DNA of 64,000 bases, taken from the IMG/VR virus record IMGVR_UViG_3300025087_000034. One strand, written 5' to 3'. A model generated the notes under the pieces. It made no database searches and was not told the DNA's origin. It saw only the letters and a list, made by a program, of their open reading frames with translations. Positions 5,078-43,870 of the stretch are shown here, piece after piece (positions within the stretch are counted from its first letter, which is position 1; the number at the start of each line of letters is the position of its first letter). The position numbers and the translations under genes were made by a program. Source of the stretch: a virus. Lineage: Duplodnaviria; Caudoviricetes.

Positions 5078-5208
5078 GATAATCCTTCAGTGTTTGGGGG
5101 TTTTCCCAACCCTTCCTATAGTAAAATCCATACAAAAATAATATATATTAAAAATTTTCTCTTTACAGAGTTAAGCTATTTTTCTATTTATATAGGTGAA
5201 CGGGGACG

Positions 5209-10061: not shown

Positions 10062-10179
10062 GAATACATCGAAATAGAAAATAATAATTGTCATTTTTTG
10101 TGGATTATTGTATTTATATAGTGTGTGGGGATGATGCTGGGTTGGTACCTTGTTCTTGTTGTAATTTTAGGGAGGTTTT

Positions 10180-23774: not shown

Positions 23775-24848
23775 TCAATTTTGTGATTTCTGGCTTCTGG
23801 AGGCCACAACCGTTTGAATTCTATTTTCGAAATCCCTCTGTTTTTGTGTTATCGGAGCCACTTCCCTACCAAGTCTATCAGCCTGCCTAAGAATAAATAG
23901 TGGAAACAAACTCAAATTATTCATGTCTTCCAACTTTAGATTCACCCTCTCAACAAAGCGCATAACCGTAGAATCTTTCCATTTTCTATCATATTGATAC
24001 ATATGATTAGATACCAGATGATATATAATTTTTCCTTCGTCAGAGTTGTGCAATTCAAGTCTATTTAAGATATTGGCTACTAATTTAGATCCCAAGACTT
24101 CGTGTTTATGAAAGGTGGCCCCTTTTTCATTTTTCCCCTTTGTACCTGGTTTTCCAACATCGTGTACTAGAGCAGCAAATTTTATAGTGTAATCGTTCGT
24201 AGGGCACAAGTCACAGGCCATAAGACAATGGTCATATACAGTGAACTTGTGGTACAGTTCATTTTGTGTAATGCCAAAGCAATTAGATAATTCAGGGAGA
24301 ATAATATCTAGAGCCCCCACAAGCCTTAAAAACTCTATTCCTGTCGAGGGTTTTGTTGATTTTATTAGTCTCTTTAGTTCTCTCCATATAAATCTACCAG
24401 GAGTCTGTGCTAACTTTGCTACATTCTTACTTATAGAGAGGAGTAGCCTTTCTGATATAGAGAAACCGGTTTCCGCTTTCAAAGCTGCGGCTCTGATTAT
24501 AAGTTGTGGTTTCTCAGCTAACTCCTGTTCTGGTTCGTGTACTGTTGTTATTCTTTTTTTCTCTATATCTTTCATAGCTCCATAAGGGTCTATTATCTCC
24601 TTGGTTGAGGAGTTCAAGAGAAGGCCATCTAGTTTAAACGGCTGTATGGGTAGATACTTTGTTGGAGTACAGTGAGTTACGTGTTTTACTTTTATCCCTT
24701 TTGCAATTATTTGTTCCGAGGTGTCAAAAGAAACTAGGTAGACTTCTTCTGGAGTGAGGTCCATAATTAGCAAACATGCAGTGGTATAACTGAAATACAG
24801 GTTCTTGTTTCGGTATCCTTGTACCAGAGGTATAAGGCTATTTGTCAT
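23775..24848 (-). CDS. CCA-adding enzyme/poly(A) polymerase homolog with degenerate NTase head and intact HD domain
   Basis: DPYGAMKDI and PGRFIWRELKRL body motifs, VYDHC..ALVHDVGKP..FHKHE HD motifs; no GGxVRD, DxD or RRD. Confidence 0.8.
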   Translation of the reverse strand: MTNSLIPLVQGYRNKNLYFSYTTACLLIMDLTPEEVYLVSFDTSEQIIAKGIKVKHVTHCTPTKYLPIQPFKLDGLLLNSSTKEIIDPYGAMKDIEKKRITTVHEPEQELAEKPQLIIRAAALKAETGFSISERLLLSISKNVAKLAQTPGRFIWRELKRLIKSTKPSTGIEFLRLVGALDIILPELSNCFGITQNELYHKFTVYDHCLMACDLCPTNDYTIKFAALVHDVGKPGTKGKNEKGATFHKHEVLGSKLVANILNRLELHNSDEGKIIYHLVSNHMYQYDRKWKDSTVMRFVERVNLKLEDMNNLSLFPLFILRQADRLGREVAPITQKQRDFENRIQTVVASRSQKSQN

Positions 24849-25677
24849 CTTTGACTTTTTTCTCCGCTGATTTTAGGAGACCCCAAATAGCTTGGCGCGA
24901 AACTCTTCTAGGAGTAATACCTTCTGAAAAGACTACGTCCGCGATGTCTTCATTGTTGAGGCCTTGTTGATGAAGGACTAGTATAGAAGCCTTTTTCTTG
25001 CCCATATTTTCTCTTAGTTTTTCAACTAATTCATTTGCAGCAACATTATTTATTATGCTATCTTCACTAGTTATATGGTGTGACATTGCTGACTCGTCGT
25101 CTGGAACTTCTATAGTTATACTTTCGTAGGCAAGGCTGACTATTGTTTCATAAGTGGTCTTCGAGTTCTTTGCCAGCTTATCTACCATTGCCTTTATACA
25201 TCTTAACTTATCTAATGAACCGATAGAAAGTAGTAATTCTGCTTCGTGCTGCCAAACTCCTATTATTTCTCTAGGTTCTATATGACGACAGAATAATGTA
25301 TGTTCCTGTTCCAAGAGCCTAGTCATTCTATCTATATAGACCCTTGTTTTACTTATATAAATGGGGACAGATATAGATGTAGTATTTTTTATGCAGTATT
25401 CATATAAACGACCTTTTATTCTTGTTATAGCATGTATATCAAAATTGGATGAACGTGTAGGATCAAAATGCCTTGAAGCTTCTATAAGCCCTATTATTCC
25501 ACACATTACAAGATCTTCATACTCTACCCCGGGTCTTACGTATTTTTCAGCCATAGTTAATACCAATTTTATATATTTTTTTATATCCTTTTCCTCTTTA
25601 TTCTTTGGTATGTATCCATTAATTATATATGATATGTGTCTAAAAAATTCGGGTGACATTCTTTTGCTTCCAGACAT
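24838..25677 (-). CDS. Sigma70-family RNA polymerase sigma factor
   Basis: Region 2 EDLVMCGIIGLIEASRHFDPTRSSNF; region 4 HTH EDIAD...VSRQAI. Confidence 0.85.
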   Translation of the reverse strand: MSGSKRMSPEFFRHISYIINGYIPKNKEEKDIKKYIKLVLTMAEKYVRPGVEYEDLVMCGIIGLIEASRHFDPTRSSNFDIHAITRIKGRLYEYCIKNTTSISVPIYISKTRVYIDRMTRLLEQEHTLFCRHIEPREIIGVWQHEAELLLSIGSLDKLRCIKAMVDKLAKNSKTTYETIVSLAYESITIEVPDDESAMSHHITSEDSIINNVAANELVEKLRENMGKKKASILVLHQQGLNNEDIADVVFSEGITPRRVSRQAIWGLLKSAEKKVKDDK

Positions 25678-25689
25678 TTTGGATCCTAT

Positions 25690-26676
25690 TTAGTGTGGGG
25701 CAAATTTTCTGCCTATTTCTATATAACCATTTTCTTTTAAGTATTCTACTCCTTTTTTGGATATTATCCTCCCTCTGCTAGTTCTTATAAGTAGACCTTG
25801 CTGTATAAGATACGGTTCTGTGCTATTTTGTATAGTTTCGGGGGATTCATTTAGCAATATAGATGTTGTATCAAGTCCTAGTGGAACCCCTGTTTCATAC
25901 ATAGTTTTTAAATATTTTATGTCAGTATATAATAGCCCATTTTTGTCTATTCCTATAATATTAAAAACTGAGGAACATTCATCCATAGTTATAGTGTCTC
26001 TTTTTAACACCACAACAGCATCCCAAACACGATATAATAGGTTTACGACTATGCGAGGGACACCTCTTGCTCGAGAAGCGATAGCTTCCGCGGCATCTTG
26101 TGTTATCTGCATTTTATTTATTTCTGCATGTTTTATAGCTATTTGTGTAGTTTCTTCTAGGTTATAGGTTTTGAAGTGAAAACCCATTCTAAATCTGTCC
26201 CTAAAAGGCTTTGATAGTTTACCGGCTAGCGTTGTAGCTCCTATGATAGTAAATTGTGGAACCCACATTTCCCAGTTTTCACCTGTGTATTGATTTTTTG
26301 TAACAATATAGTGTTCTTCCATTGCTATACCAAGAGACTCTTGTCCATTTGTTGGAAGCCTGTGTATTTCGTCCAAAAATATTATTGTTGGTTTGATTTT
26401 ACTTACCTTTAATCCTTCTTTTGTGTATCCCTCTACAGACAGTTTTTCTATGAGCTCATACACATCTTTAGATGTTTTTAGGCTCTCCGACGGAACCTTC
26501 AACATCCCTGCTCCTTGGTGTATAGCAAGAGCCTTCGACATAGTGGTTTTTCCACATCCAGAGGCACCTGTAAATAGAGTATGCGGTATAGCCTCATTAT
26601 TTATTCTTGCTGCCTCACTGGCTATTGTTAATTGTAGCTTTATATTATTATTCCCTATTATATCATTAAATCTCAA
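25690..26676 (-). CDS. ruvB: Holliday junction branch-migration ATPase RuvB
   Basis: GASGCGKTT, FLDEIHRL, GATTLAGKLSKPFRDRF, ARGVPRI, EPYLIQQG..RTSRGR. Confidence 0.93.
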   Translation of the reverse strand: MRFNDIIGNNNIKLQLTIASEAARINNEAIPHTLFTGASGCGKTTMSKALAIHQGAGMLKVPSESLKTSKDVYELIEKLSVEGYTKEGLKVSKIKPTIIFLDEIHRLPTNGQESLGIAMEEHYIVTKNQYTGENWEMWVPQFTIIGATTLAGKLSKPFRDRFRMGFHFKTYNLEETTQIAIKHAEINKMQITQDAAEAIASRARGVPRIVVNLLYRVWDAVVVLKRDTITMDECSSVFNIIGIDKNGLLYTDIKYLKTMYETGVPLGLDTTSILLNESPETIQNSTEPYLIQQGLLIRTSRGRIISKKGVEYLKENGYIEIGRKFAPH

Positions 26677-35449: not shown

Positions 35450-36820
35450 TTAATGATAACGAATTAACATATTTTTCTGTTCGTAAGCAGCTTTCCTTTT
35501 CCAGAATTGATTTTTAAACATTTTTATATTGTCTACATAATCGTAGACAATAGCATTTTCTTTTCCTTCCAACGGTCTCTCAATCCTGCCAGTTGACTGA
35601 ACTATTAGGCTAGAACTCTTTAGGGGGGCGGCGAGAAATAAGCGACTTGAAGGTTTATAATTAAAACCCTCAGCTAGAAGGCCATAGGTTACTATAAGTA
35701 TTTTTGTTTCTCCAGAGAGAAACCCTTCTATCTGTTTATCCCTAATCTTATTTGTCTGTTTGGAATGCGGAGAAGCAACAGTTATCCCCAAACTATTAAA
35801 GATATCTGTTAGAATATCTATATGTTTAGTGGTAACAGTTAATACCATACAGGTATTTTCTAGACCATACTCATATAGTATATCTGATACTATGAGATTG
35901 TTTCTTCTTTCATTAGTAGAAATATATTCTATTAGATCTGCATAGTTGGCTCCCCATAACTTCTTCGTAGCGGTAATTTCAGTATAGTGTACTAAGACAG
36001 AAGAATTTATTATTCTATTTGCATCTACTGCATCCTTATGCTTTATTGTTGTTACTACTGGTCCTATGTAATTAAACATCAAAGGATCTAATCCATCTTC
36101 TCTATACGGGGTAGCTGTAATTCCATATAAAAATCTAGGAGAAAATCCACAGATAACCTTTAAGAAAGTAGAGGAAGGAACATGTTGGCATTCATCAACA
36201 AGTATTAATCCAAAAGAATATTTAAGTTCTTTTATTAGTTCTTTGTTACGAACTAGTGTGGGAACCATACCTATAGTAAGTATATCCCCAAGTGCCTTCT
36301 TACTCTCTCCTATAATTCCTATTTTTCCTACTTCTATAAATTTCTCTATCTCTTTCTTAACTTGTTTAACAAGGGGCCCCCTATGAGTTAGCCATAGTGT
36401 GGGTAACCCTAGTCTGGCTATGACTTCCAAAGCCATTACAGTTTTTCCACTTCCTGCGGGGGCTATGCCAATACCCTGTCGGTGGGAAACTAAACTCTCA
36501 ACCCAGGGTATTTGTATAGGTTCCAACTTTATGTTATTATTTATTAATCTTTTACTGAAATTGGCGGTAGTGTCTTCTATAACATTTATACTATTAGTTA
36601 TTTCTGTAGCCCTATAGAGATAGCCTCTAGGAACTATTATGCCTTCGGTTATTTCTGAATATTGTTTTATGAATTTTGGTATACCGAAGGTTCGTCTGCC
36701 AAATTGTATAGCAGATTTCCACGCAGGATTCGGGAAGGTTAGGTCTTTTCTAAATTGGTCTAGTTCAGTTTTTGATATGTTTGTTATAGTTAAGTCTTTG
36801 TCAATTTTGACATCCATCAA
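35450..36820 (-). CDS. Superfamily II DNA/RNA helicase (UvsW/SSL2-like)
   Basis: APAGSGKT, DECQH, TATPYREDG, EGFN, QSTGRIER. Confidence 0.92.
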   Translation of the reverse strand: MMDVKIDKDLTITNISKTELDQFRKDLTFPNPAWKSAIQFGRRTFGIPKFIKQYSEITEGIIVPRGYLYRATEITNSINVIEDTTANFSKRLINNNIKLEPIQIPWVESLVSHRQGIGIAPAGSGKTVMALEVIARLGLPTLWLTHRGPLVKQVKKEIEKFIEVGKIGIIGESKKALGDILTIGMVPTLVRNKELIKELKYSFGLILVDECQHVPSSTFLKVICGFSPRFLYGITATPYREDGLDPLMFNYIGPVVTTIKHKDAVDANRIINSSVLVHYTEITATKKLWGANYADLIEYISTNERRNNLIVSDILYEYGLENTCMVLTVTTKHIDILTDIFNSLGITVASPHSKQTNKIRDKQIEGFLSGETKILIVTYGLLAEGFNYKPSSRLFLAAPLKSSSLIVQSTGRIERPLEGKENAIVYDYVDNIKMFKNQFWKRKAAYEQKNMLIRYH

Positions 36821-37081: not shown

Positions 37082-37291
37082 TTACAAGGTCGTAGAACCC
37101 ATCTCTTTAGGGGTGGGATATAAGGCCTTTTGATAGTCCTCACTTTCTTTTTTTACTATATTTGTAACTTCTACTTCGTATCCTCCTTCTTCTAAGTTTT
37201 TTCTATGTCTGTCTCTAAGTTTCATAAATTCATAGTATTCTTTCATGGATTCAAATGTTCTTCCTGGAAATAGGGGAACAGTGAAAGCCAC
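37082..37291 (-). CDS. Hypothetical protein
   Basis: 69-aa ORF coupled to ssb. Confidence 0.5.
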   Translation of the reverse strand: MAFTVPLFPGRTFESMKEYYEFMKLRDRHRKNLEEGGYEVEVTNIVKKESEDYQKALYPTPKEMGSTTL

Positions 37292-37746
37292 TATAAACCT
37301 TTTACTAAGGACAAGATCTTATCTTGAGCTTCCTGTGAAACTCCAGAAGGAAGACGAGGATCCGTGTTTGCAATAGTTTCTGATGGGTCCGAGGGTGCTT
37401 CTGAGCGTACTGTTGAAACAAAGCGAACATCATTAGCTACTATATTTACGAACCTCTTTACTCCGGCTTCGGTCTCTATGCGCCTATTTTCTAAACGTCC
37501 TTCTACTATTACTGGAGTACCTTTTGAACAATACTTCATGACGGCTTCACCCTGGGGTCCCCAACATACTATTGACATATATGTGGTTTCTTCCTGTTTT
37601 ACTCCGTCTCTAGTCTTATACCGCCTGTTGGAAGCGAGATCAAAACGGCACCCTTTGGTACCGTCCCCTATTGGGCTAGGATCCGAAGTAAGCCTACCAC
37701 CAAATACCACCAAATTAATGTCTACTGACATAAAAACCTCCCACAC
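37291..37746 (-). CDS. ssb: Single-stranded DNA-binding protein
   Basis: NLVVFGGRLTSDP, FDLASNR, KGTPVIVEGRLE. Confidence 0.92.
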   Translation of the reverse strand: MWEVFMSVDINLVVFGGRLTSDPSPIGDGTKGCRFDLASNRRYKTRDGVKQEETTYMSIVCWGPQGEAVMKYCSKGTPVIVEGRLENRRIETEAGVKRFVNIVANDVRFVSTVRSEAPSDPSETIANTDPRLPSGVSQEAQDKILSLVKGL

Positions 37747-39009: not shown

Positions 39010-39702
39010 TCACTCATATTTGTCTATCCATTTAAGAAGGCGTATTGTTCCATAGTTATATCTATTATACCTTCCCTCCCGTTTCTGACTTTCGATAATG
39101 TTTCTACACACAGATATGTTCGCGCCGTGTTCTAATAGCGCTTCTATTACTTCAGTATGGCCGCAGGCTAAGGCATATTTGAGGGCCCGATCATAGTCTG
39201 CATGTACGTTCGCCCCATGCCTAAGTAGTACTTTTACAATAGCAAGATGCCCTGTTCTACAAGCTTTCCTAAGAGCTAAATCATTATACATATGAACATC
39301 AGCTCCTTCGGTAATAACTCTACTCAATACTTTGGGTGTAATCTTCTCTTTTTCACCCATAATTACTTTGTTGGCGTGCCATACTTGTGGCTTATTTTCA
39401 AGGTGTCCGAAAAACCCTGCAAAAGTATCTTTTACCACGTGGGTATTACTAGGTATGGTAACTTTTCGTAGCCACGGTCCACAATCTAAAAAGGCTAGAG
39501 TGTCTTCCTTGGTAAAATAGATATCGAATGATGGCTTAGCTACATTGAGCCCAGTCTTGAGTTTTAGTCCGTCATAAATTCTATTCAGCATTATAATTTT
39601 GTAGAAACCCATTTGGGTATCGTTTTTTATTTCGTGTGGGTCGTAGCTACAATGAGCCTGGGCATGGTAGTACTTAGACATTGTTCTTTCTTCTGATGTC
39701 AA
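39010..39702 (-). CDS. Ankyrin-repeat protein (family member 1)
   Basis: FYKI..GLKLKTGLNV N-module; GADVH..D.ALR.A..GH..IVK.LL repeats. Confidence 0.85.
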   Translation of the reverse strand: MTSEERTMSKYYHAQAHCSYDPHEIKNDTQMGFYKIIMLNRIYDGLKLKTGLNVAKPSFDIYFTKEDTLAFLDCGPWLRKVTIPSNTHVVKDTFAGFFGHLENKPQVWHANKVIMGEKEKITPKVLSRVITEGADVHMYNDLALRKACRTGHLAIVKVLLRHGANVHADYDRALKYALACGHTEVIEALLEHGANISVCRNIIESQKREGRYNRYNYGTIRLLKWIDKYE

Positions 39703-42700
39703 CTTCTCATTTTTTCTTTGGCGTGTTTAAACATCCAACCAGTCAGGTCTTTTGGTTCAGTATTTATGTTCTTTATCATTACAATTGGGTGCAGATTAGA
39801 CCTAGTGGTAAACCAAAACTTGTGAAATTTTCTAACTATTATATTAACAATGGAGGACCTACCTTCTAACTCTGCCTTTTTATAATATTCCTCCAAACTT
39901 TCGGGACGAAATCCACAAAGGGCGGCCTTTTTTCTTATTATGTCAGTTAATTTTATGCTGGTAGATTTATCAAATCCTAATTCCACCATCTTATCAACTC
40001 GGGCTGTACATATCGCTTCTTTACATTCTTTTTCCAGGCTTCTTCCAGCATGCTTTCTACTAAATACACTATTAGCAACTTTGTCTAGTAGAATTTCCAT
40101 TGCTATTGTAGTATCAGGGTCATTATAGTCCAATTCACCCTCTAAGATCCTCATTATATTATAGCACAAGGCAATTATTGTTCCGGTACCTCGTTTTATT
40201 CCCGTCAAACCCTCTACTATTTCTGCATTTTCTTTGGCATTTAGTAGCCCAAATCTTTGTATGTTGTATTCATCCAATACTAGCTCCCTAAATCCAGGTA
40301 TTTTCTTTAATCTGGCTTTTTCATACGCAGCCAGCCTCGCCGGGTGTGGATTATTGAACTCTGTTTCTAGGGCTACTCTGGATTCCTTACTGTGAAAGCT
40401 CATTATATATATAACATCCCCATCGAAATCTAGGGTGAGTGAAGAAAGACTACTCCCACTTACTTTGACTACATACTTAGCAAGGGGCTCATCGGTTATT
40501 TTTACTTTCTGGGCTCGTACGGACATGAATCCTAGACAAGGAAACCTTTCTACTAAAACTATGTCTCCTTCTAATATTCTTAAGTCATTAGCCATTTCTC
40601 TGTGAAGCTCTATTTGGTTAGGTTCCAGTATATCACTAACACCGGCTGTGGCTTTAATTGTGTAAGGATACCGAATTGAAAGACAGTAATTACTTATCTT
40701 GCCATTTTTAGAACTTAAGGTGCCTGCTATAGTGTGAAAATATAAAAACACAGCCCTACCTACTTGTGACACACTGACTTCTTCGTTTTTATACTTATGA
40801 ATAGCACTTACTATGGCATTTGCTAAGGCGGATATGTCTGACAAACCAAACTGCCCGCTTTGATGTTTCCAAGGCTTTCTAAATTTACTGGAAGGAATTA
40901 GTATTTTGTCTAATATATAGGTGTCATTTTCATTATCCATGTGTTTGTTGGTAAACTCTTCAGAAAATTCTGAAAACATGGCCTTCTTTAATATATATTT
41001 ATAATCGTCGGGTAACTTTAGATAGAAGCCATTTGGGCATAAGGTTTCATCAGAAACTGTCCCACTAAAATCAATAAGGTGGTGAAAGAATCCCCCTGTC
41101 TGATTAACTGGGTTTATCTTATCCCACTCTATTGTTGGTATATCCTTTTCCTCTCTGTTGATAGATTCTAATACACGGATATATTCAAATACCTGGTCCT
41201 CGCCTTGGGAGTGTTTTAATATTTCTTTTATGATAGGATTTTTCTTTCCAAACGTGGTTAGTAGGGCTCTGAATTCTATGTGACTGAGTTTATTACCCGC
41301 TTGTCGTACACCCCTACCGTCTACTACATCAGTATCGTATTTTGTCCATAGCTGGTCCTCAGGTGTCTTGGTGTAACCCCAGAATATCCACCCAGCGACC
41401 CCCCTAAAGTCTCCCCATTGGGTGGCAGCCGTTACCGTTCCATCTTCTGAATACCCTATATTAGAGAGTTTATCTTTTATTGATTCCATACTGGTAACGA
41501 ACTCATCTTCTACTATTGTCTCTTTATCGGAGCCATGTATCAAACTACTGAGAGCTTCTAATAGCTGCCCAAAATTCTTTCTTTTTTGTACAGAACTAGC
41601 TGAAACTATAACGTCTATGGGTACATCCCCACGAACGGGGTCATGAATTACCCCCGTATCTTGTAAGGTAATAACACCTTTATTTCCATGCCTATTGGTA
41701 ATCTTTACACCCTCCTTGAAGGTTCTCTTATAAATTATGGTTATTCGTCGTATTTTAGTTGGTGCATTATTGAAATTTATTACCGATTCGATAACGGAGG
41801 ATACTATAGCACTTTCGGCTCTTAAATTGAAACGAATGAAACTACCGTCAGGTTCTATTGCTAAGGGATACAAAAAGTTTAGCGAGTCTCCTTCTCGTAC
41901 CAAAGTCGTACCAAAAGTTGTATAGCTTTTGGTTTCCATGGTAAAGAGATGTTCAAGCCTATTACTAACTATTATTTGGTCTTCAAAATTTAGGGGCATA
42001 TCTACAAATAGGGTCATTAAGTTCCACCCTGTTCTATTGATCCCTACGTCACTTAAAGTTTTTTCTGTCCTACTCATTATTTTGGGTGGTTCATCCCCTC
42101 GCATCCCTAAAGTTTGGTATAAATTTCTACGGGGGTTATGATATCCTATACCAAACGGTATAGTCTTTCTTACGTCCACAGTAAGAATATTATTATTGCA
42201 CATACCACTATCTGACAAACCCAAGGAAGTACACGGAAACAATATTTCATTAGCTGTCTTTTGATATTCCAAGGCTTTATTTGGAGGAAGGTCTTTAAAT
42301 GTAGAATCCACTATTTGCATTCTATGGCACATGGCCCAATTTTGCATGTCAGTGCCTACTATGGGAAGTGCATTTACATAGGAATCAATGACCTTTTGAA
42401 AGCCTTTAAACACTATAGGAGCAGAACCATAGATAAAGCTTCGTACTAGGCGATCAAGCTGAGTTCTTTTACTGGAAGTTTTAGCAAACTTTTGTGGGTT
42501 GTCGGTGAACATCCCATATATAAGATTCCAGAAATCTATTTCTTTGCCATCCACAAACCAGGTCCCCACGGCTCGTTTTACGTGTCCCTCCTCAATAAAA
42601 CACAGGCCTTTTTCATCAGAACTGGGAATCGGGATATTGATCGATTGTTCTATTTCTTTGGATTTGAATGTGAGCCAAAGACTACCAGATTTTTCCTCAA

Positions 42701-42818
42701 TCCTTATTAACTCAGTTTGAAAGATATCCCCCAACTGTCCCTGGGCTTTACTACGAGAGGTCTCTGAAGAAGATTTTATCTTAGATATAAAACCATCTTT
42801 TCCAAGAACCTGTGTCAT
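39699..42818 (-). CDS. Single-chain two-barrel DNA-directed RNA polymerase (reduced beta-beta' fusion)
   Basis: beta motifs NFEDQIIVS, GVKITNRHGNKG, RKNFGQLLE followed in the same frame by beta' motifs ERFPCL and LDFDGD. Confidence 0.9.
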   Translation of the reverse strand: MTQVLGKDGFISKIKSSSETSRSKAQGQLGDIFQTELIRIEEKSGSLWLTFKSKEIEQSINIPIPSSDEKGLCFIEEGHVKRAVGTWFVDGKEIDFWNLIYGMFTDNPQKFAKTSSKRTQLDRLVRSFIYGSAPIVFKGFQKVIDSYVNALPIVGTDMQNWAMCHRMQIVDSTFKDLPPNKALEYQKTANEILFPCTSLGLSDSGMCNNNILTVDVRKTIPFGIGYHNPRRNLYQTLGMRGDEPPKIMSRTEKTLSDVGINRTGWNLMTLFVDMPLNFEDQIIVSNRLEHLFTMETKSYTTFGTTLVREGDSLNFLYPLAIEPDGSFIRFNLRAESAIVSSVIESVINFNNAPTKIRRITIIYKRTFKEGVKITNRHGNKGVITLQDTGVIHDPVRGDVPIDVIVSASSVQKRKNFGQLLEALSSLIHGSDKETIVEDEFVTSMESIKDKLSNIGYSEDGTVTAATQWGDFRGVAGWIFWGYTKTPEDQLWTKYDTDVVDGRGVRQAGNKLSHIEFRALLTTFGKKNPIIKEILKHSQGEDQVFEYIRVLESINREEKDIPTIEWDKINPVNQTGGFFHHLIDFSGTVSDETLCPNGFYLKLPDDYKYILKKAMFSEFSEEFTNKHMDNENDTYILDKILIPSSKFRKPWKHQSGQFGLSDISALANAIVSAIHKYKNEEVSVSQVGRAVFLYFHTIAGTLSSKNGKISNYCLSIRYPYTIKATAGVSDILEPNQIELHREMANDLRILEGDIVLVERFPCLGFMSVRAQKVKITDEPLAKYVVKVSGSSLSSLTLDFDGDVIYIMSFHSKESRVALETEFNNPHPARLAAYEKARLKKIPGFRELVLDEYNIQRFGLLNAKENAEIVEGLTGIKRGTGTIIALCYNIMRILEGELDYNDPDTTIAMEILLDKVANSVFSRKHAGRSLEKECKEAICTARVDKMVELGFDKSTSIKLTDIIRKKAALCGFRPESLEEYYKKAELEGRSSIVNIIVRKFHKFWFTTRSNLHPIVMIKNINTEPKDLTGWMFKHAKEKMRS

Positions 42819-42895: not shown

Positions 42896-43870
42896 CTAAT
42901 CAACCCAACAATCATACGCATACCATTCGTTCATTACAGATTCAAGATTGTGTTTTAGGACATATCTTGGGTTATTTATTAAATCCAGGCGTACCCAAGA
43001 AAAGAAATATTGCAACATATTTACTGCTAAACCAGAATCTTTATTTCTATCCCTATATTCTATAAGTTTATCCATCGATAACATATAACCTAAATTATAT
43101 AGTTTACATATATAATACAGCGGTATCAATTCATATCTGGCTATGTCTGTTGGATTTTTTTTATACTTTTTTCTTATACTATCAAATGATAGTAAAGGAA
43201 TGCCTTCTGAATCCTTGGCTTCTTTATCCAAATAGTTTTCCAATAGCAAGAACAACTTACCCCCTCTTACATCTCTGCCCTTTTGATGTGTCAAAAAGGC
43301 AAGGCCAGACCTACTCACAGTACCATTCTCAAAGAGGCGGATAAAACTAGATGAGTTGGCCTCATTAAATATACCGCATAGATCTATGTCTAAGAGTTCA
43401 AACTTATGTGGTCTTAATCTTGTTATTTCATTCATATACTTTACGAAGGGTCTTTTGGCCCAGGGACTTGTTTTATTTCCTGGGGGTTTTATACAGGTTT
43501 TTTTCCCATAACAGGCACTAAAAGAATTAAAACTGTGGGGCCATATTTTCATAAATGGGAGGTGTTCTTCTCTAGTTCTTATAAGCTTTCGTAATAGTTC
43601 CTCTCCATTATGTACAACTGATAGTTTCTCCGTAGTTTGTATGGTAGTTATACTACCCGCAGTTGTAATACCCTGGTTTACTAACAATCTTTCAAATAGA
43701 GCGTCAGGACCAGCAAAGGTGAGACATTTTATTTTGTCTCTTCTATCACCATAATAGAAAGGGAAAGTAGTTTCTAGGAAATTTTTTACTGAAAAGATTT
43801 TATGAATTCTTACGAGTGTTTTATTCTTCCCATTCCAACACATTACTTTATTAGAGTTTATTGACATCAA
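42896..43870 (-). CDS. Hypothetical protein, possible SAM-dependent methyltransferase-like fold
   Basis: CLTFAGP and FELLDIDLCG resemble class I MTase motifs; weak. Confidence 0.35.
   Translation of the reverse strand: MMSINSNKVMCWNGKNKTLVRIHKIFSVKNFLETTFPFYYGDRRDKIKCLTFAGPDALFERLLVNQGITTAGSITTIQTTEKLSVVHNGEELLRKLIRTREEHLPFMKIWPHSFNSFSACYGKKTCIKPPGNKTSPWAKRPFVKYMNEITRLRPHKFELLDIDLCGIFNEANSSSFIRLFENGTVSRSGLAFLTHQKGRDVRGGKLFLLLENYLDKEAKDSEGIPLLSFDSIRKKYKKNPTDIARYELIPLYYICKLYNLGYMLSMDKLIEYRDRNKDSGLAVNMLQYFFSWVRLDLINNPRYVLKHNLESVMNEWYAYDCWVD

What the first reader, a model, noticed from the sequence alone, without database searches (positions are those of the whole stretch)
39699..42818. Miniaturised one-chain beta-beta' RNA polymerase that keeps the sigma-docking clamp
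Seen: one uninterrupted 1039-aa ORF carries, in cellular order, beta-like segments (INIPIPSSDEKGLCFI; TIPFG..HNPRRNL; NLMTLFVDMPLNFEDQIIVS; GVKITNRHGNKG; DVIVSASSVQKRKNFGQLLE; AGNKLSHIEFRALL) and then beta'-like segments (ILIPSSKFRKPWKHQSGQFGLSDISALANAIV, matching the lid and clamp helix LPPDLRP..GGRFATSDLNDLYRRVI; SKNGKISNY, matching GKQGRFRQN; ERFPCL; LDFDGD; a bridge-like helix and a short SRKHAG trigger-like element). Known: E. coli beta plus beta' total about 2750 aa, catalysis uses DxDGD, and the beta' clamp helices bind sigma region 2. Inference: a natural minimal fusion derived from a cellular-type enzyme, apparently without the flap-tip helix and most lineage-specific inserts, which may work with the sigma factor at 24838-25677. 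I do not know a characterised enzyme with this architecture.
Basis: partly seen in the sequence, partly recalled or inferred. Interest (0 to 1): 0.92.

Follow-up and report, generated by a model that had tools for sequence, protein, structure and literature searches.

The report
Mini single-chain RNA polymerase, giant phage
A giant groundwater phage encodes, in one 1,039-residue protein, a stripped-down version of both large subunits of a cell-type RNA polymerase; it belongs to a conserved family known only from metagenomes that I found in no paper, and whether it uses the phage's own sigma factor is untested.

Summary
ORF 39699-42818 (minus strand, 1,039 aa) carries a beta-type and then a beta'-type double-psi barrel. 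The catalytic residues are invariant in 45-47 homologues (K372, K380, D797, D799, D801).

A confident model (pLDDT 91) matches beta/Rpb2 over residues 4-537 (Z 17-20) and beta'/Rpb1 over 551-1034 (Z 11-13.5). It keeps a small flap barrel, a clamp with lid and coiled-coil, switch 2, a bridge helix and a trigger-loop-like motif. It has no flap-tip helix, and no alpha-like gene was found.

The family is sharply bounded: about 24 clusters at 50% identity, 920-1,200 aa, on metagenomic phage contigs up to 315 kb. No GenBank phage matched. Its nearest sequence relatives are other phage polymerases, not cellular ones.

The missing flap tip and the variable coiled-coil tip argue for caution.

It is most likely an active phage RNA polymerase (about 0.8). 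Sigma dependence is about 0.3.

This scan found other fused beta-beta' families before on other DNA, but no look-alike of this sequence. I rate it a new variant of a known kind.

The parts
39699..42818 (-). Whole gene: 1,039-aa single-chain beta-beta' type RNA polymerase (P0001)
   Evidence: ORF; Pfam; homologues; model pLDDT 91, pTM 0.87
42033..42818 (-). Residues 1-262: beta-like N-terminal region with the fork-like motif HNPRRNL (H227, P229, R231, N232 invariant)
   Evidence: Aligned to beta/Rpb2 from residue 4 on (Z 17-20); invariant columns. The 'fork' label is my reading of the motif.
41946..42032 (-). Residues 263-291: first part of the beta-type double-psi barrel (NFEDQ)
   Evidence: D280 invariant, E279 and Q281 in at least 90% of sequences; Z 17-19 to the AR9 and phiKZ beta-like chains over residues 213-523
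41724..41945 (-). Residues 292-365: small all-beta barrel inserted in the beta barrel (minimal flap), without a flap-tip helix
   Evidence: Matches the E. coli flap (3tbi_B, Z 7.2) and the Thermus flap (3woe_A, Z 7.0); strands only in DSSP; translation
41364..41723 (-). Residues 366-485: second part of the beta-type barrel (KITNRHGNKG; KRKNFGQLLE)
   Evidence: K372, N375, N379, K380, G381, R413, N415, Q418, E421 invariant; Pfam Rpb2_6; hhalign to E. coli beta 1048-1120, probability 91%
41184..41363 (-). Residues 486-545: beta C-terminal segment (AGNKLSHIEFRALL) and the junction to the beta' half
   Evidence: G508, K510, E515, T521, G524 invariant; beta alignments end at 523-537 and beta' alignments start at 551-555; sister-clade genes are split at about residue 507
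40683..41168 (-). Residues 551-712: clamp core, lid (P642, R647, W650), coiled-coil and start of switch 2 (K704, G706)
   Evidence: The sub-model of 545-762 has RNAP clamps as its 12 best PDB matches (3qqc_A Z 8.0; M. tuberculosis beta' residues 14-418 Z 7.1), then a drop to Z 4.6 or less
40716..40838 (-). Residues 661-701: helical hairpin in the position of the beta' clamp helices (candidate docking site for a sigma or another factor)
   Evidence: Helices 661-677 and 683-701; hhalign register with E. coli beta' 263-310 (weak); tip variable in length across the family; translation
40323..40679 (-). Residues 714-832: beta'-type double-psi barrel (ERFPCLGF; DFDGD at 40416-40430)
   Evidence: Pfam Rpb1_2; Z 9.4 to a designed DPBB over 719-808; E757, R758, P760, D797, D799, G800, D801 invariant; translation
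40134..40238 (-). Residues 861-895: 35-residue bridge-like helix
   Evidence: Single helix in the model; K875, T878, G879, Y886, R890, E893 invariant; lies inside the region aligned to beta'/Rpb1
40008..40118 (-). Residues 901-937: trigger-loop-like helix-loop-helix (SVFSRKHAG)
   Evidence: V918, F919, K922, H923 invariant; helices 901-918 and 929-937. The assignment is inferred from position and motif, not shown.
39702..39998 (-). Residues 941-1039: C-terminal helical region
   Evidence: Aligned to beta'/Rpb1 up to residue 1033-1034; R1006 and D1024 invariant
24838..25677 (-). Sigma-70-family factor (279 aa), co-conserved with the polymerase 13-17 kb away
   Evidence: Pfam, PHROG and NCBIfam matches; orthologue in 10 of 12 polymerase-bearing IMG/VR records, 3 of 3 complete ones. 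A physical link is untested.
35450..36820 (-). XPB/Rad25-like SF2 helicase downstream of the polymerase gene, conserved in synteny
   Evidence: NCBIfam XPB E 1e-16; present 0.9-2.9 kb downstream in 12 of 12 IMG/VR loci, and about 5.7 kb downstream in L040. A role in transcription is only a possibility.

Best explanation
The gene encodes an active DNA-dependent RNA polymerase of the two-barrel (beta/beta') superfamily, built as one 1,039-residue chain.

The N-terminal half supplies the beta-type barrel, with its two catalytic lysines and a minimal flap. The C-terminal half supplies the beta'-type barrel with the DFDGD metal site, a clamp with lid and coiled-coil, switch 2, a bridge helix and a short trigger-loop-like element.

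Because the two halves are covalently joined, no alpha-type assembly platform is needed. The phage would make the enzyme after infection and use it to transcribe part of its own roughly 258-kb genome independently of the host core enzyme.

Shown here: the fold, the domain order and the conservation of the catalytic residues. Inferred: RNA synthesis on a DNA template, and a role in phage gene expression.

How promoters are chosen is open. It could be the co-conserved phage sigma-70-type factor docking on the coiled-coil (about 0.3), or an intrinsic or still unrecognised specificity determinant, with sigma serving the host core instead.
For: - Both barrel domains are found by Pfam in all 45 family members.
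- K372, K380, D797, D799, D801 and the RFPCLGF, switch-2, bridge-helix and FxxKH motifs are invariant in 45-47 sequences at 35-58% identity.
- The model has pLDDT 91 and pTM 0.87.
- Residues 4-537 match beta/Rpb2 at Z 17-20 over 357-494 residues; residues 551-1034 match beta'/Rpb1 at Z 11-13.5 over about 390-420 residues.
- RdRP/QDE-1 (Z 11-12), P23-45/P74 polymerases (Z about 10) and crAss gp66 (Z 6.8) score lower.
- The clamp sub-model hits only RNAP clamps at the top of the list. The flap barrel matches bacterial flaps.
- Switch 2 is conserved; PMC2919709 reports it as shared by the DNA-dependent enzymes and absent from RdRPs.
- The context is a giant phage: an identical protein lies on a 258,514-bp contig, and relatives lie on contigs up to 315 kb, one with terminal repeats.
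- Each complete relative checked has one beta-type barrel match, and none has an alpha-like match.
Against: - There are no biochemical data and no RNA runs for this DNA.
- Rpb1_2 scores just under Pfam's cut-off in this protein.
- Position 795, which aligns by motif with E. coli N458 (a ribose contact, from my own knowledge), is Asn in the family consensus but Thr here.
- The trigger-loop assignment rests on position and motif only.
- Phage-encoded sigma factors are usually taken to mean that a jumbo phage relies on the host core enzyme (PMC7824862, PMC7598289, PMC13282480). That leaves unclear why this phage would need its own polymerase.
Confidence: 0.8

Rival explanations
1. Sigma-dependent mini-holoenzyme. 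The polymerase binds the phage sigma-70-family factor (24838-25677) through its clamp coiled-coil and starts at phage promoters read mainly through a -10-like element. It would be a self-contained phage transcription machine.
For: - A helical hairpin sits in the position of the beta' clamp helices, flanked by a lid and switch 2 in cellular order.
- A sigma orthologue is present in 11 of 13 polymerase-bearing genomes (window included) and in 3 of 3 complete ones, always 13-17 kb from the polymerase gene.
- From my own knowledge: the beta' coiled-coil alone suffices to activate sigma-70 binding of the -10 non-template strand, and the flap tip is dispensable at extended -10 promoters.
Against: - There is no flap-tip helix for sigma region 4, yet this sigma keeps region 4.
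- The coiled-coil tip varies in length by up to about 12 residues and is not conserved in sequence.
- E. coli R275, a sigma contact (from my own knowledge), aligns with A672.
- Sigma genes are near-universal in large phages that have no polymerase (PMC7824862).
- A 95%-complete 260-kb phage has a sigma-70-family factor similar over region 2 (33% identity) but no beta barrel, with positive controls. It is a distant phage, so this evidence is weak.
- The fixed gene distance may only reflect a conserved genome order.
- The complex prediction could not be run.
Confidence: 0.3
2. Sigma-independent phage polymerase. The enzyme recognises its promoters by itself or with an unrecognised phage factor, as YonO, the P23-45 non-virion enzyme, AR9 gp226 and phiKZ gp68 do. 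The phage sigma redirects the host core enzyme to another class of phage genes.
For: - Every phage two-barrel polymerase studied so far works without a sigma-70-family protein (PMC5467207, PMC10770324, PMC7598289, PMC13282480).
- The flap tip is missing and the coiled-coil tip is variable.
- The nearest sequence relatives outside the family are other phage polymerases.
- A conserved XPB/Rad25-like helicase lies nearby. It echoes the Rad25-like helicase linked to polymerase genes in phiKZ-type phages (PMC7824862).
Against: - The clamp, lid and coiled-coil are retained in every member, which suggests that some partner docks there.
- The gene directly upstream is not conserved in sequence between sub-clades, so no obvious dedicated factor travels with the polymerase.
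- Sigma co-occurs with the polymerase in 11 of 13 genomes.
Confidence: 0.5
3. Not a transcriptase. A two-barrel enzyme used for another polymerisation: priming of replication, RNA-templated RNA synthesis as by QDE-1 or RDR2, or DNA synthesis as by archaeal PolD. Alternatively, an inactive decoy.
For: - Two-barrel enzymes include RdRPs and PolD (PMC9508822, PMC6355029).
- The gene sits among replication and repair genes: SSB, helicase and RuvB.
- RDR2 and QDE-1 match at Z 11-12 across both halves.
Against: - Cellular beta and beta' match better, and over far more of each half.
- The flap insert, clamp and switch 2 are traits of the DNA-dependent transcriptases (PMC2919709, PMC7824862).
- All catalytic residues are invariant, which rules out a decoy.
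Confidence: 0.07

Closest known systems
Orf6 of yeast linear killer plasmids (pGKL2), a 982-aa Rpb2::Rpb1 fusion (PMC2919709)
   Same: One chain of about 1,000 residues, with the beta/Rpb2-like half first and the beta'/Rpb1-like half second. About half of each cellular subunit is deleted. It keeps both barrels, the bridge helix, fork, hybrid-binding region and switch 3.
   Different: Orf6 is eukaryotic-plasmid borne. It is reported to lack detectable lid, rudder and trigger-loop homology. The phage protein has a lid-like segment, a coiled-coil and an FxxKH trigger-like motif, and it comes with a sigma-70-type gene. I held no Orf6 sequence, so direct homology was not tested.
YonO of Bacillus prophage SPbeta (PMC5467207)
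   Same: A single-chain phage enzyme of about 100 kDa from the two-barrel superfamily that transcribes phage genes.
   Different: YonO shares only a few active-site residues with cellular enzymes and has no detectable trigger loop (PMC5467207). The YonO/RdRP branch lacks the barrel inserted in the beta domain (PMC7824862). The phage protein here has that insert, a clamp and a trigger-like motif. tblastn against 50,697 GenBank phage records found nothing.
Non-virion RNA polymerases of phiKZ and AR9 (PDB 7ogp, 7s00)
   Same: Phage-encoded, cell-type fold, no alpha or omega subunit. Their beta-like chains are among the best structural matches (Z 16.9-18.8). The related PHROG families 3295 and 2987 are the best PHROG matches.
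   Different: Those enzymes are split into four or five polypeptides and use non-sigma factors (gp68, gp226). This one is fused and less than half the total size, and its phages encode a true sigma-70-family protein, which the review says group 1 phages lack (PMC7824862).
Bacterial RNA polymerase core beta + beta' (E. coli, 1,342 + 1,407 aa)
   Same: The order of structural elements is the same: fork, barrel with flap insert, switch 3, clamp, lid, clamp helices, switch 2, DFDGD barrel, bridge helix, trigger loop. Z 19.7 to Xanthomonas beta and Z 11.0 to M. tuberculosis beta'.
   Different: It is 38% of the combined length. It has no flap-tip helix and no cysteine cluster in the aligned clamp segment 545-762 where a zinc-binding domain would be, and no alpha partner was found. 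Sequence similarity is limited to about 70 residues (28 bits to the family profile).
P23-45 gp96 and P74 gp62 two-barrel polymerases (PDB 8h2n, 8f5m; PMC10770324) and crAss-like phi14:2 gp66 (6vr4)
   Same: Single-chain phage two-barrel RNA polymerases.
   Different: Structural matches are much weaker (Z 9.4-10.1 and 6.8). Those enzymes are either fused to a tape-measure protein or packaged as a giant virion protein.
Other fused beta-beta' families noted earlier in this scan (about 2,000-aa phage class; about 1,600-aa sigma-54-linked class; 119-kDa archaeal-element class)
   Same: Single-chain beta-then-beta' polymerases from uncultured elements. Proteins of about 1,760-2,330 aa appear as distant hits of this family's profile, but I did not check that they are the ones the earlier notes describe.
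   Different: They are different families. No look-alike of this sequence is in the scan's index. This class is half the size of the 2,000-aa class and is linked to a sigma-70-type, not a sigma-54-type, factor.

Membership tests
Two-barrel (beta/beta'-type) RNA polymerase superfamily | Two double-psi beta-barrels in one active centre | tested here: met
   Pfam Rpb2_6 and Rpb1_2 in 45 of 45 members; model residues 719-808 match a designed DPBB at Z 9.4; the beta half matches beta/Rpb2 at Z 17-20
Two-barrel (beta/beta'-type) RNA polymerase superfamily | DxDGD metal-binding triad in the beta'-type barrel | tested here: met
   D797, D799, G800, D801 invariant in 47 sequences; DFDGD at 40416-40430
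Two-barrel (beta/beta'-type) RNA polymerase superfamily | Two conserved basic residues in the beta-type barrel | tested here: met
   K372 and K380 invariant, aligned to E. coli KMAGRHGNKG
Two-barrel (beta/beta'-type) RNA polymerase superfamily | Template-dependent RNA synthesis | not testable with these tools
   Needs purified protein
Cell-type (canonical) branch, as opposed to the YonO/RdRP branch | Sandwich-barrel (flap) domain inserted in the beta barrel | tested here: met
   Residues 292-365 match the E. coli and Thermus flaps at Z 7.0-7.2. PMC7824862 gives this insert as the feature that separates the branches.
Cell-type (canonical) branch, as opposed to the YonO/RdRP branch | Clamp with coiled-coil, lid and switch 2 N-terminal to the beta' barrel | tested here: met
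   The top 12 PDB matches of the 545-762 sub-model are RNAP clamps (Z 4.9-8.0), then unrelated folds at Z 4.6 or less; hhalign register
Cell-type (canonical) branch, as opposed to the YonO/RdRP branch | Trigger loop after the bridge helix | tested here: inconclusive
   Helix-loop-helix at 901-937 with invariant F919, K922, H923, but no residue-level structural alignment was available
Bacterial core enzyme (alpha2-beta-beta'-omega) | Alpha dimer as assembly platform | tested here: not met
   No PF01193 match in 5 related phage genomes, 3 of them complete; the control genomes all matched
Bacterial core enzyme (alpha2-beta-beta'-omega) | Flap-tip helix | tested here: not met
   Residues 292-366 are all strands in DSSP
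Sigma-70-dependent holoenzyme | A cognate sigma-70-family factor is encoded alongside | tested here: met
   Sigma at 24838-25677; orthologue in 10 of 12 related records
Sigma-70-dependent holoenzyme | Physical binding of sigma region 2 to the clamp helices | not testable with these tools
The coiled-coil is present but its tip is variable.
YonO-like single-chain polymerases | Sequence homology to YonO and absence of the flap insert | tested here: not met
   The flap insert is present, whereas the YonO/RdRP branch lacks it (PMC7824862). tblastn against the GenBank phage collection gave no match; whether that collection holds SPbeta was not checked. No YonO sequence or solved structure was compared directly.
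Killer-plasmid Orf6-type fusion | Rpb2-like half fused before the Rpb1-like half in about 1,000 aa | tested here: met
   Domain order and length. This is a shared architecture, not shown common descent.
Killer-plasmid Orf6-type fusion | Direct sequence or structural homology to Orf6 | not tested
   No Orf6 sequence was available from the tools

The most novel reading that the evidence does not exclude
This would be the first phage-encoded two-barrel RNA polymerase that forms a holoenzyme with a true sigma-70-family factor. A roughly 150-kDa, two-protein transcription machine (1,039 aa plus 279 aa) would keep the cellular logic of clamp-helix docking and -10 recognition while lacking the flap tip, alpha and omega. 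That would overturn the published split between jumbo phages with their own polymerase and no sigma, and jumbo phages with sigma and no polymerase.
Probability: 0.28. Interest if true: 0.85.

Novelty: new variant of a known kind. Interest (0 to 1): 0.62.

Why it matters
Cellular RNA polymerases have a catalytic core of about 400 kDa. How much of it is truly needed is usually asked with YonO, which has lost almost every recognisable element.

This family is an intermediate: 38% of the beta + beta' length in one chain, yet with the clamp, lid, coiled-coil, flap barrel, switch 2, bridge helix and a trigger-like motif still in place. That makes it a natural minimal model of the cell-type enzyme for structural and single-molecule work. 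It is also a candidate compact orthogonal polymerase for synthetic biology.

It bears on phage biology too. Reviews state that jumbo phages with sigma factors lack their own polymerase and depend on the host core (PMC7824862, PMC7598289, PMC13282480). This lineage of giant groundwater phages has both.

The existence of a sister clade with the same mini-enzyme split into two overlapping genes gives a handle on how fusions and splits of the two large subunits arise.

Tried and rejected
- **Sequence searches of GenBank phages.** tblastn with the protein and megablast with 10 kb of DNA gave no match.
- **hhalign of the family against single E. coli beta and beta' sequences.** Only short stretches aligned. 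This fixes the register but proves little by itself.
- **A conserved partner gene directly upstream.** Every locus has a 248-335 aa gene 7-94 nt upstream. They fall into three groups with no detectable homology by BLAST, hhalign or jackhmmer, so I dropped the idea of a dedicated conserved subunit.
- **A sigma-bearing relative without the polymerase as evidence that sigma serves the host.** G006 fits. But its sigma matches only over region 2 at 33%, its helicase is 29% identical and its synteny differs, so it carries little weight.
- **T7-type polymerase in relatives.** Nothing matched, but the control genomes did not match either, so this is uninformative.
- **Promoter motifs.** TATTTATATAG is enriched (18 against 5.8 expected), but many copies lie inside ORFs or on the opposite strand to the local genes.
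- **Expression.** No RNA run holds this DNA.
- **Host inference from MAG bins.** Members are binned with Muribaculaceae, Woesearchaeota, Altiarchaeales, Patescibacteria and others. That spread is inconsistent and most likely reflects mis-binned phage contigs.
- **Names from source records.** There are none.

Full report
**1. The observation**

The window has an uninterrupted 1,039-codon ORF on the minus strand at 39699-42818.

Pfam finds RNA_pol_Rpb2_6 at residues 335-462 (E 5e-11). It finds RNA_pol_Rpb1_2 at 745-815 (E 8e-5, 23.3 bits against a cut-off of 25.3). The best PDB sequence matches are bacterial beta subunits over residues 355-422. So the beta-type module precedes the beta'-type module in one chain, as claimed.

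**2. It is a real, conserved gene**

A search of 5.8 billion proteins returned more than 120 homologues at 35-58% identity over 91-99% of the length for most. Nearly all are 930-1,176 aa and all come from metagenomes.

In a 47-sequence alignment the catalytic signature is invariant: K372, N375, N379, K380 and G381 in KITNxHGNKG; R413, N415, Q418 and E421; E757, R758, P760, C761, L762, G763 and F764; D797, D799, G800 and D801. So are residues in the bridge-like helix (K875, T878, G879, Y886, R890, E893) and in the motif FxxKH (F919, K922, H923). All 45 members scanned match both Pfam families.

A profile search of 1.84 billion cluster representatives shows a sharply bounded family. About 24 full-length representatives (922-1,202 aa) score above 900 bits. 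Fragments follow, and then the scores drop to 60-90 bits for other proteins.

**3. Structure**

AlphaFold2 with the family alignment gave a confident model (mean pLDDT 91.1, pTM 0.87). An all-against-representatives structural search gave these matches:

| Model residues | Best matches | Z | Residues aligned |
|---|---|---|---|
| 4-537 | beta/Rpb2 of plastid, ASFV, Xanthomonas, Pol IV, Pol I | 18.8-20.0 | 357-492 |
| 213-523 | beta-like chains of AR9 and phiKZ non-virion polymerases | 16.9-18.8 | 268-297 |
| 551-1034 | largest subunits: human Pol I, Pol II, M. tuberculosis beta' | 11.0-13.5 | 391-418 |
| both halves | RDR2, QDE-1 | 11.2-11.8 | about 470 |
| both halves | P23-45 gp96, P74 gp62 | 9.4-10.1 | 306-348 |
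| both halves | crAss gp66 | 6.8 | 496 |

Residues 292-365 form an all-beta domain inserted in the beta barrel. It matches the E. coli and Thermus flap domains (Z 7.2 and 7.0). According to PMC7824862, this insert separates the cell-type branch from the YonO/RdRP branch. DSSP shows no helix in this insert, so the flap-tip helix is absent.

I folded residues 545-762 alone (pLDDT 85). Its twelve best PDB matches are all clamp regions of the largest RNAP subunit: the archaeal clamp 3qqc_A (Z 8.0, 146 residues), M. tuberculosis beta' residues 14-418 (Z 7.1), and the AR9, vaccinia and ASFV enzymes. The next, unrelated fold scores Z 4.6.

The hairpin of helices 661-677 and 683-701 sits where the clamp helices are. 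hhalign independently put E. coli beta' 237-376 against residues 634-746. That places the lid, the clamp helices and switch 2 (K704, G706, R716, Y717 against E. coli K334, G336, R346, Y349) in the same order. That alignment is statistically weak on its own (E 0.025).

A 35-residue helix (861-895) and a helix-loop-helix (901-937) follow the DFDGD barrel, as the bridge helix and trigger loop do in cellular enzymes. The trigger-loop call is inferred from position and invariance, not shown.

**4. Where it lives**

The window is phage DNA. It holds homing endonucleases, a Lon-type protease, thymidylate synthase, a phiEco32-type amidoligase cluster, RuvB, SSB and RNA ligases.

The identical protein occurs on 24 or more contigs, the longest 258,514 bp. 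The DNA is in groundwater and soil metagenomes from six studies.

IMG/VR holds 12 related loci on contigs of 45-298 kb. One is a complete 295,848-bp genome with terminal repeats. No GenBank phage has a detectable homologue. Members binned into MAGs are scattered over unrelated bacterial and archaeal lineages, which points to mis-binning, so the host is unknown.

An AlphaFold DB cluster representative (A0A0F9QJZ1, 1,052 aa, TM 0.91, 39% identity) carries the automatic name 'DNA-directed RNA polymerase'. Pipelines therefore recognise the domains, but I found no paper on the family.

**5. Relatives**

The family profile scores E. coli beta at only 28.5 bits, and E. coli beta' not at all at E of 10 or less. 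The best non-family hits score 60-90 bits. They are:
- beta-like proteins of about 550 aa and beta'-like proteins of 440-500 aa, several of which match the phiKZ-type PHROGs 3295 and 2987;
- fused proteins of about 1,760-2,330 aa;
- giants of 4,560-5,013 aa, similar in size to the 5,002-residue tape-measure-fused polymerase of P23-45, though I did not check their identity.

So 'cell-type' describes the fold. By sequence the family sits among non-cellular, mostly phage, polymerases.

A sister clade encodes the same mini-enzyme as two overlapping genes (about 506 aa and 537 aa). Two contigs that are only 28-33% identical to each other are split at the same point, near residue 507 of this protein. 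The split is therefore genuine rather than a sequencing error.

**6. The sigma question**

ORF 24838-25677 is a sigma-70-family protein with regions 2 to 4.

Evidence for a link:
- An orthologue is present in 10 of 12 polymerase-bearing IMG/VR records, and in 3 of 3 complete ones.
- It always lies next to a RuvB-like gene and 13-17 kb from the polymerase gene.

That is co-inheritance within one phage lineage, not proof of partnership.

Evidence against a canonical holoenzyme:
- The flap-tip helix that holds sigma region 4 is absent.
- The tip of the coiled-coil varies in length and sequence across the family.
- E. coli R275 aligns with A672.
- Sigma genes are the rule in large phages without a polymerase (PMC7824862, PMC7598289, PMC13282480).
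- A distant, 95%-complete giant phage has a sigma-70-family factor similar over region 2 (33% identity) and no beta barrel. This is weak evidence because the phage is only distantly related.

I put sigma dependence at about 0.3.

**7. Other context**

No alpha-like gene was found in five related genomes. Each of the two complete genomes checked has a single beta-barrel match.

An XPB/Rad25-like SF2 helicase lies 0.9-2.9 kb downstream of the polymerase gene in 12 of 12 IMG/VR loci, and about 5.7 kb downstream in an NCBI contig. This recalls the Rad25-like helicase whose distribution tracks polymerase genes in phiKZ-type phages (PMC7824862). It may equally be the UvsW/A18-type replication helicase of this phage group.

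The gene directly upstream (324 aa here) looks like a class I methyltransferase. It is not conserved in sequence between sub-clades.

**8. Comparison and verdict**

In architecture the closest precedent is the 982-aa Rpb2::Rpb1 fusion Orf6 of yeast killer plasmids (PMC2919709). In biology it is YonO (PMC5467207). In fold and sequence it is the phiKZ and AR9 non-virion enzymes.

It differs from each:
- Unlike YonO, it keeps the flap insert, the clamp and a trigger-like motif.
- Unlike Orf6 as described, it has a lid-like segment and a coiled-coil.
- Unlike phiKZ and AR9, it is one chain of less than half the mass, and its phages encode a true sigma.

The reading 'minimal fused cell-type polymerase' is supported, and the sigma partnership is open.

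Earlier agents of this scan described other fused beta-beta' families on other DNA, but the scan's index holds no look-alike of this sequence. I rate it a new variant of a known kind, with interest 0.62.

Noticed in passing
L042:1-2356 and L043:281-2169: A sister clade encodes the same mini-polymerase as two overlapping genes: beta-like, about 506 aa, and beta'-like, about 537 aa, with a 14-16 nt overlap. The two contigs are only 28-33% identical to each other yet split at the same point (about residue 507 of the window protein). The split is therefore real, and it is not at the cellular beta/beta' boundary.
   Followed up: partly
window 35450-36820 (-): An XPB/Rad25-like SF2 helicase lies 0.9-2.9 kb downstream of the polymerase gene in 12 of 12 IMG/VR loci, followed by the amidoligase cluster. 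It may be a transcription-linked helicase, as proposed for phiKZ-type phages, or simply the replication helicase.
   Followed up: partly
window 42896-43870 (-): The gene directly upstream of the polymerase (324 aa, no Pfam hit) resembles class I SAM methyltransferases (PP_RS20740-like; Atlas feature score 0.95, structure TM 0.67). Every related locus has a 248-335 aa gene 7-94 nt upstream, but these fall into three groups with no detectable sequence homology.
   Followed up: partly
window 5661, 9774, 11722, 11881, 13907, 15918, 46247: A run of T, a G/C-rich core and a run of A (for example TTTTAGCGCGCAAAAAA) occurs 7 times, against 0.14 expected from shuffles. It appears to be the signal another agent described elsewhere in this genome as a possible punctuation of transcription.
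   Followed up: no
window 5185-5195 and 10111-10121 (+): TATTTATATAG occurs exactly twice, each time just upstream of a plus-strand gene. With one mismatch allowed there are 18 copies against 5.8 expected, but many lie inside ORFs or on the opposite strand to the local genes. It is a possible promoter-like element with no clear pattern.
   Followed up: partly
window 25690-26676 (-): A complete RuvB homologue (N, lid and C domains) lies immediately upstream of the sigma gene. The pair is conserved in the three related loci examined (L022-L024).
   Followed up: partly
L046-L052 (genome contigs): Family members sit on 16-43 kb contigs binned into MAGs named Muribaculaceae, Woesearchaeota, Arcobacteraceae, Stahlbacteria, Altiarchaeales and Patescibacteria. 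These are most likely phage contigs mis-binned into cellular genomes.
   Followed up: no
window 37291-37746 (-): A 151-aa SSB (PF00436 in the source's gene call) lies between the polymerase and the helicase. An SSB gene also lies between the two in L040.
   Followed up: no
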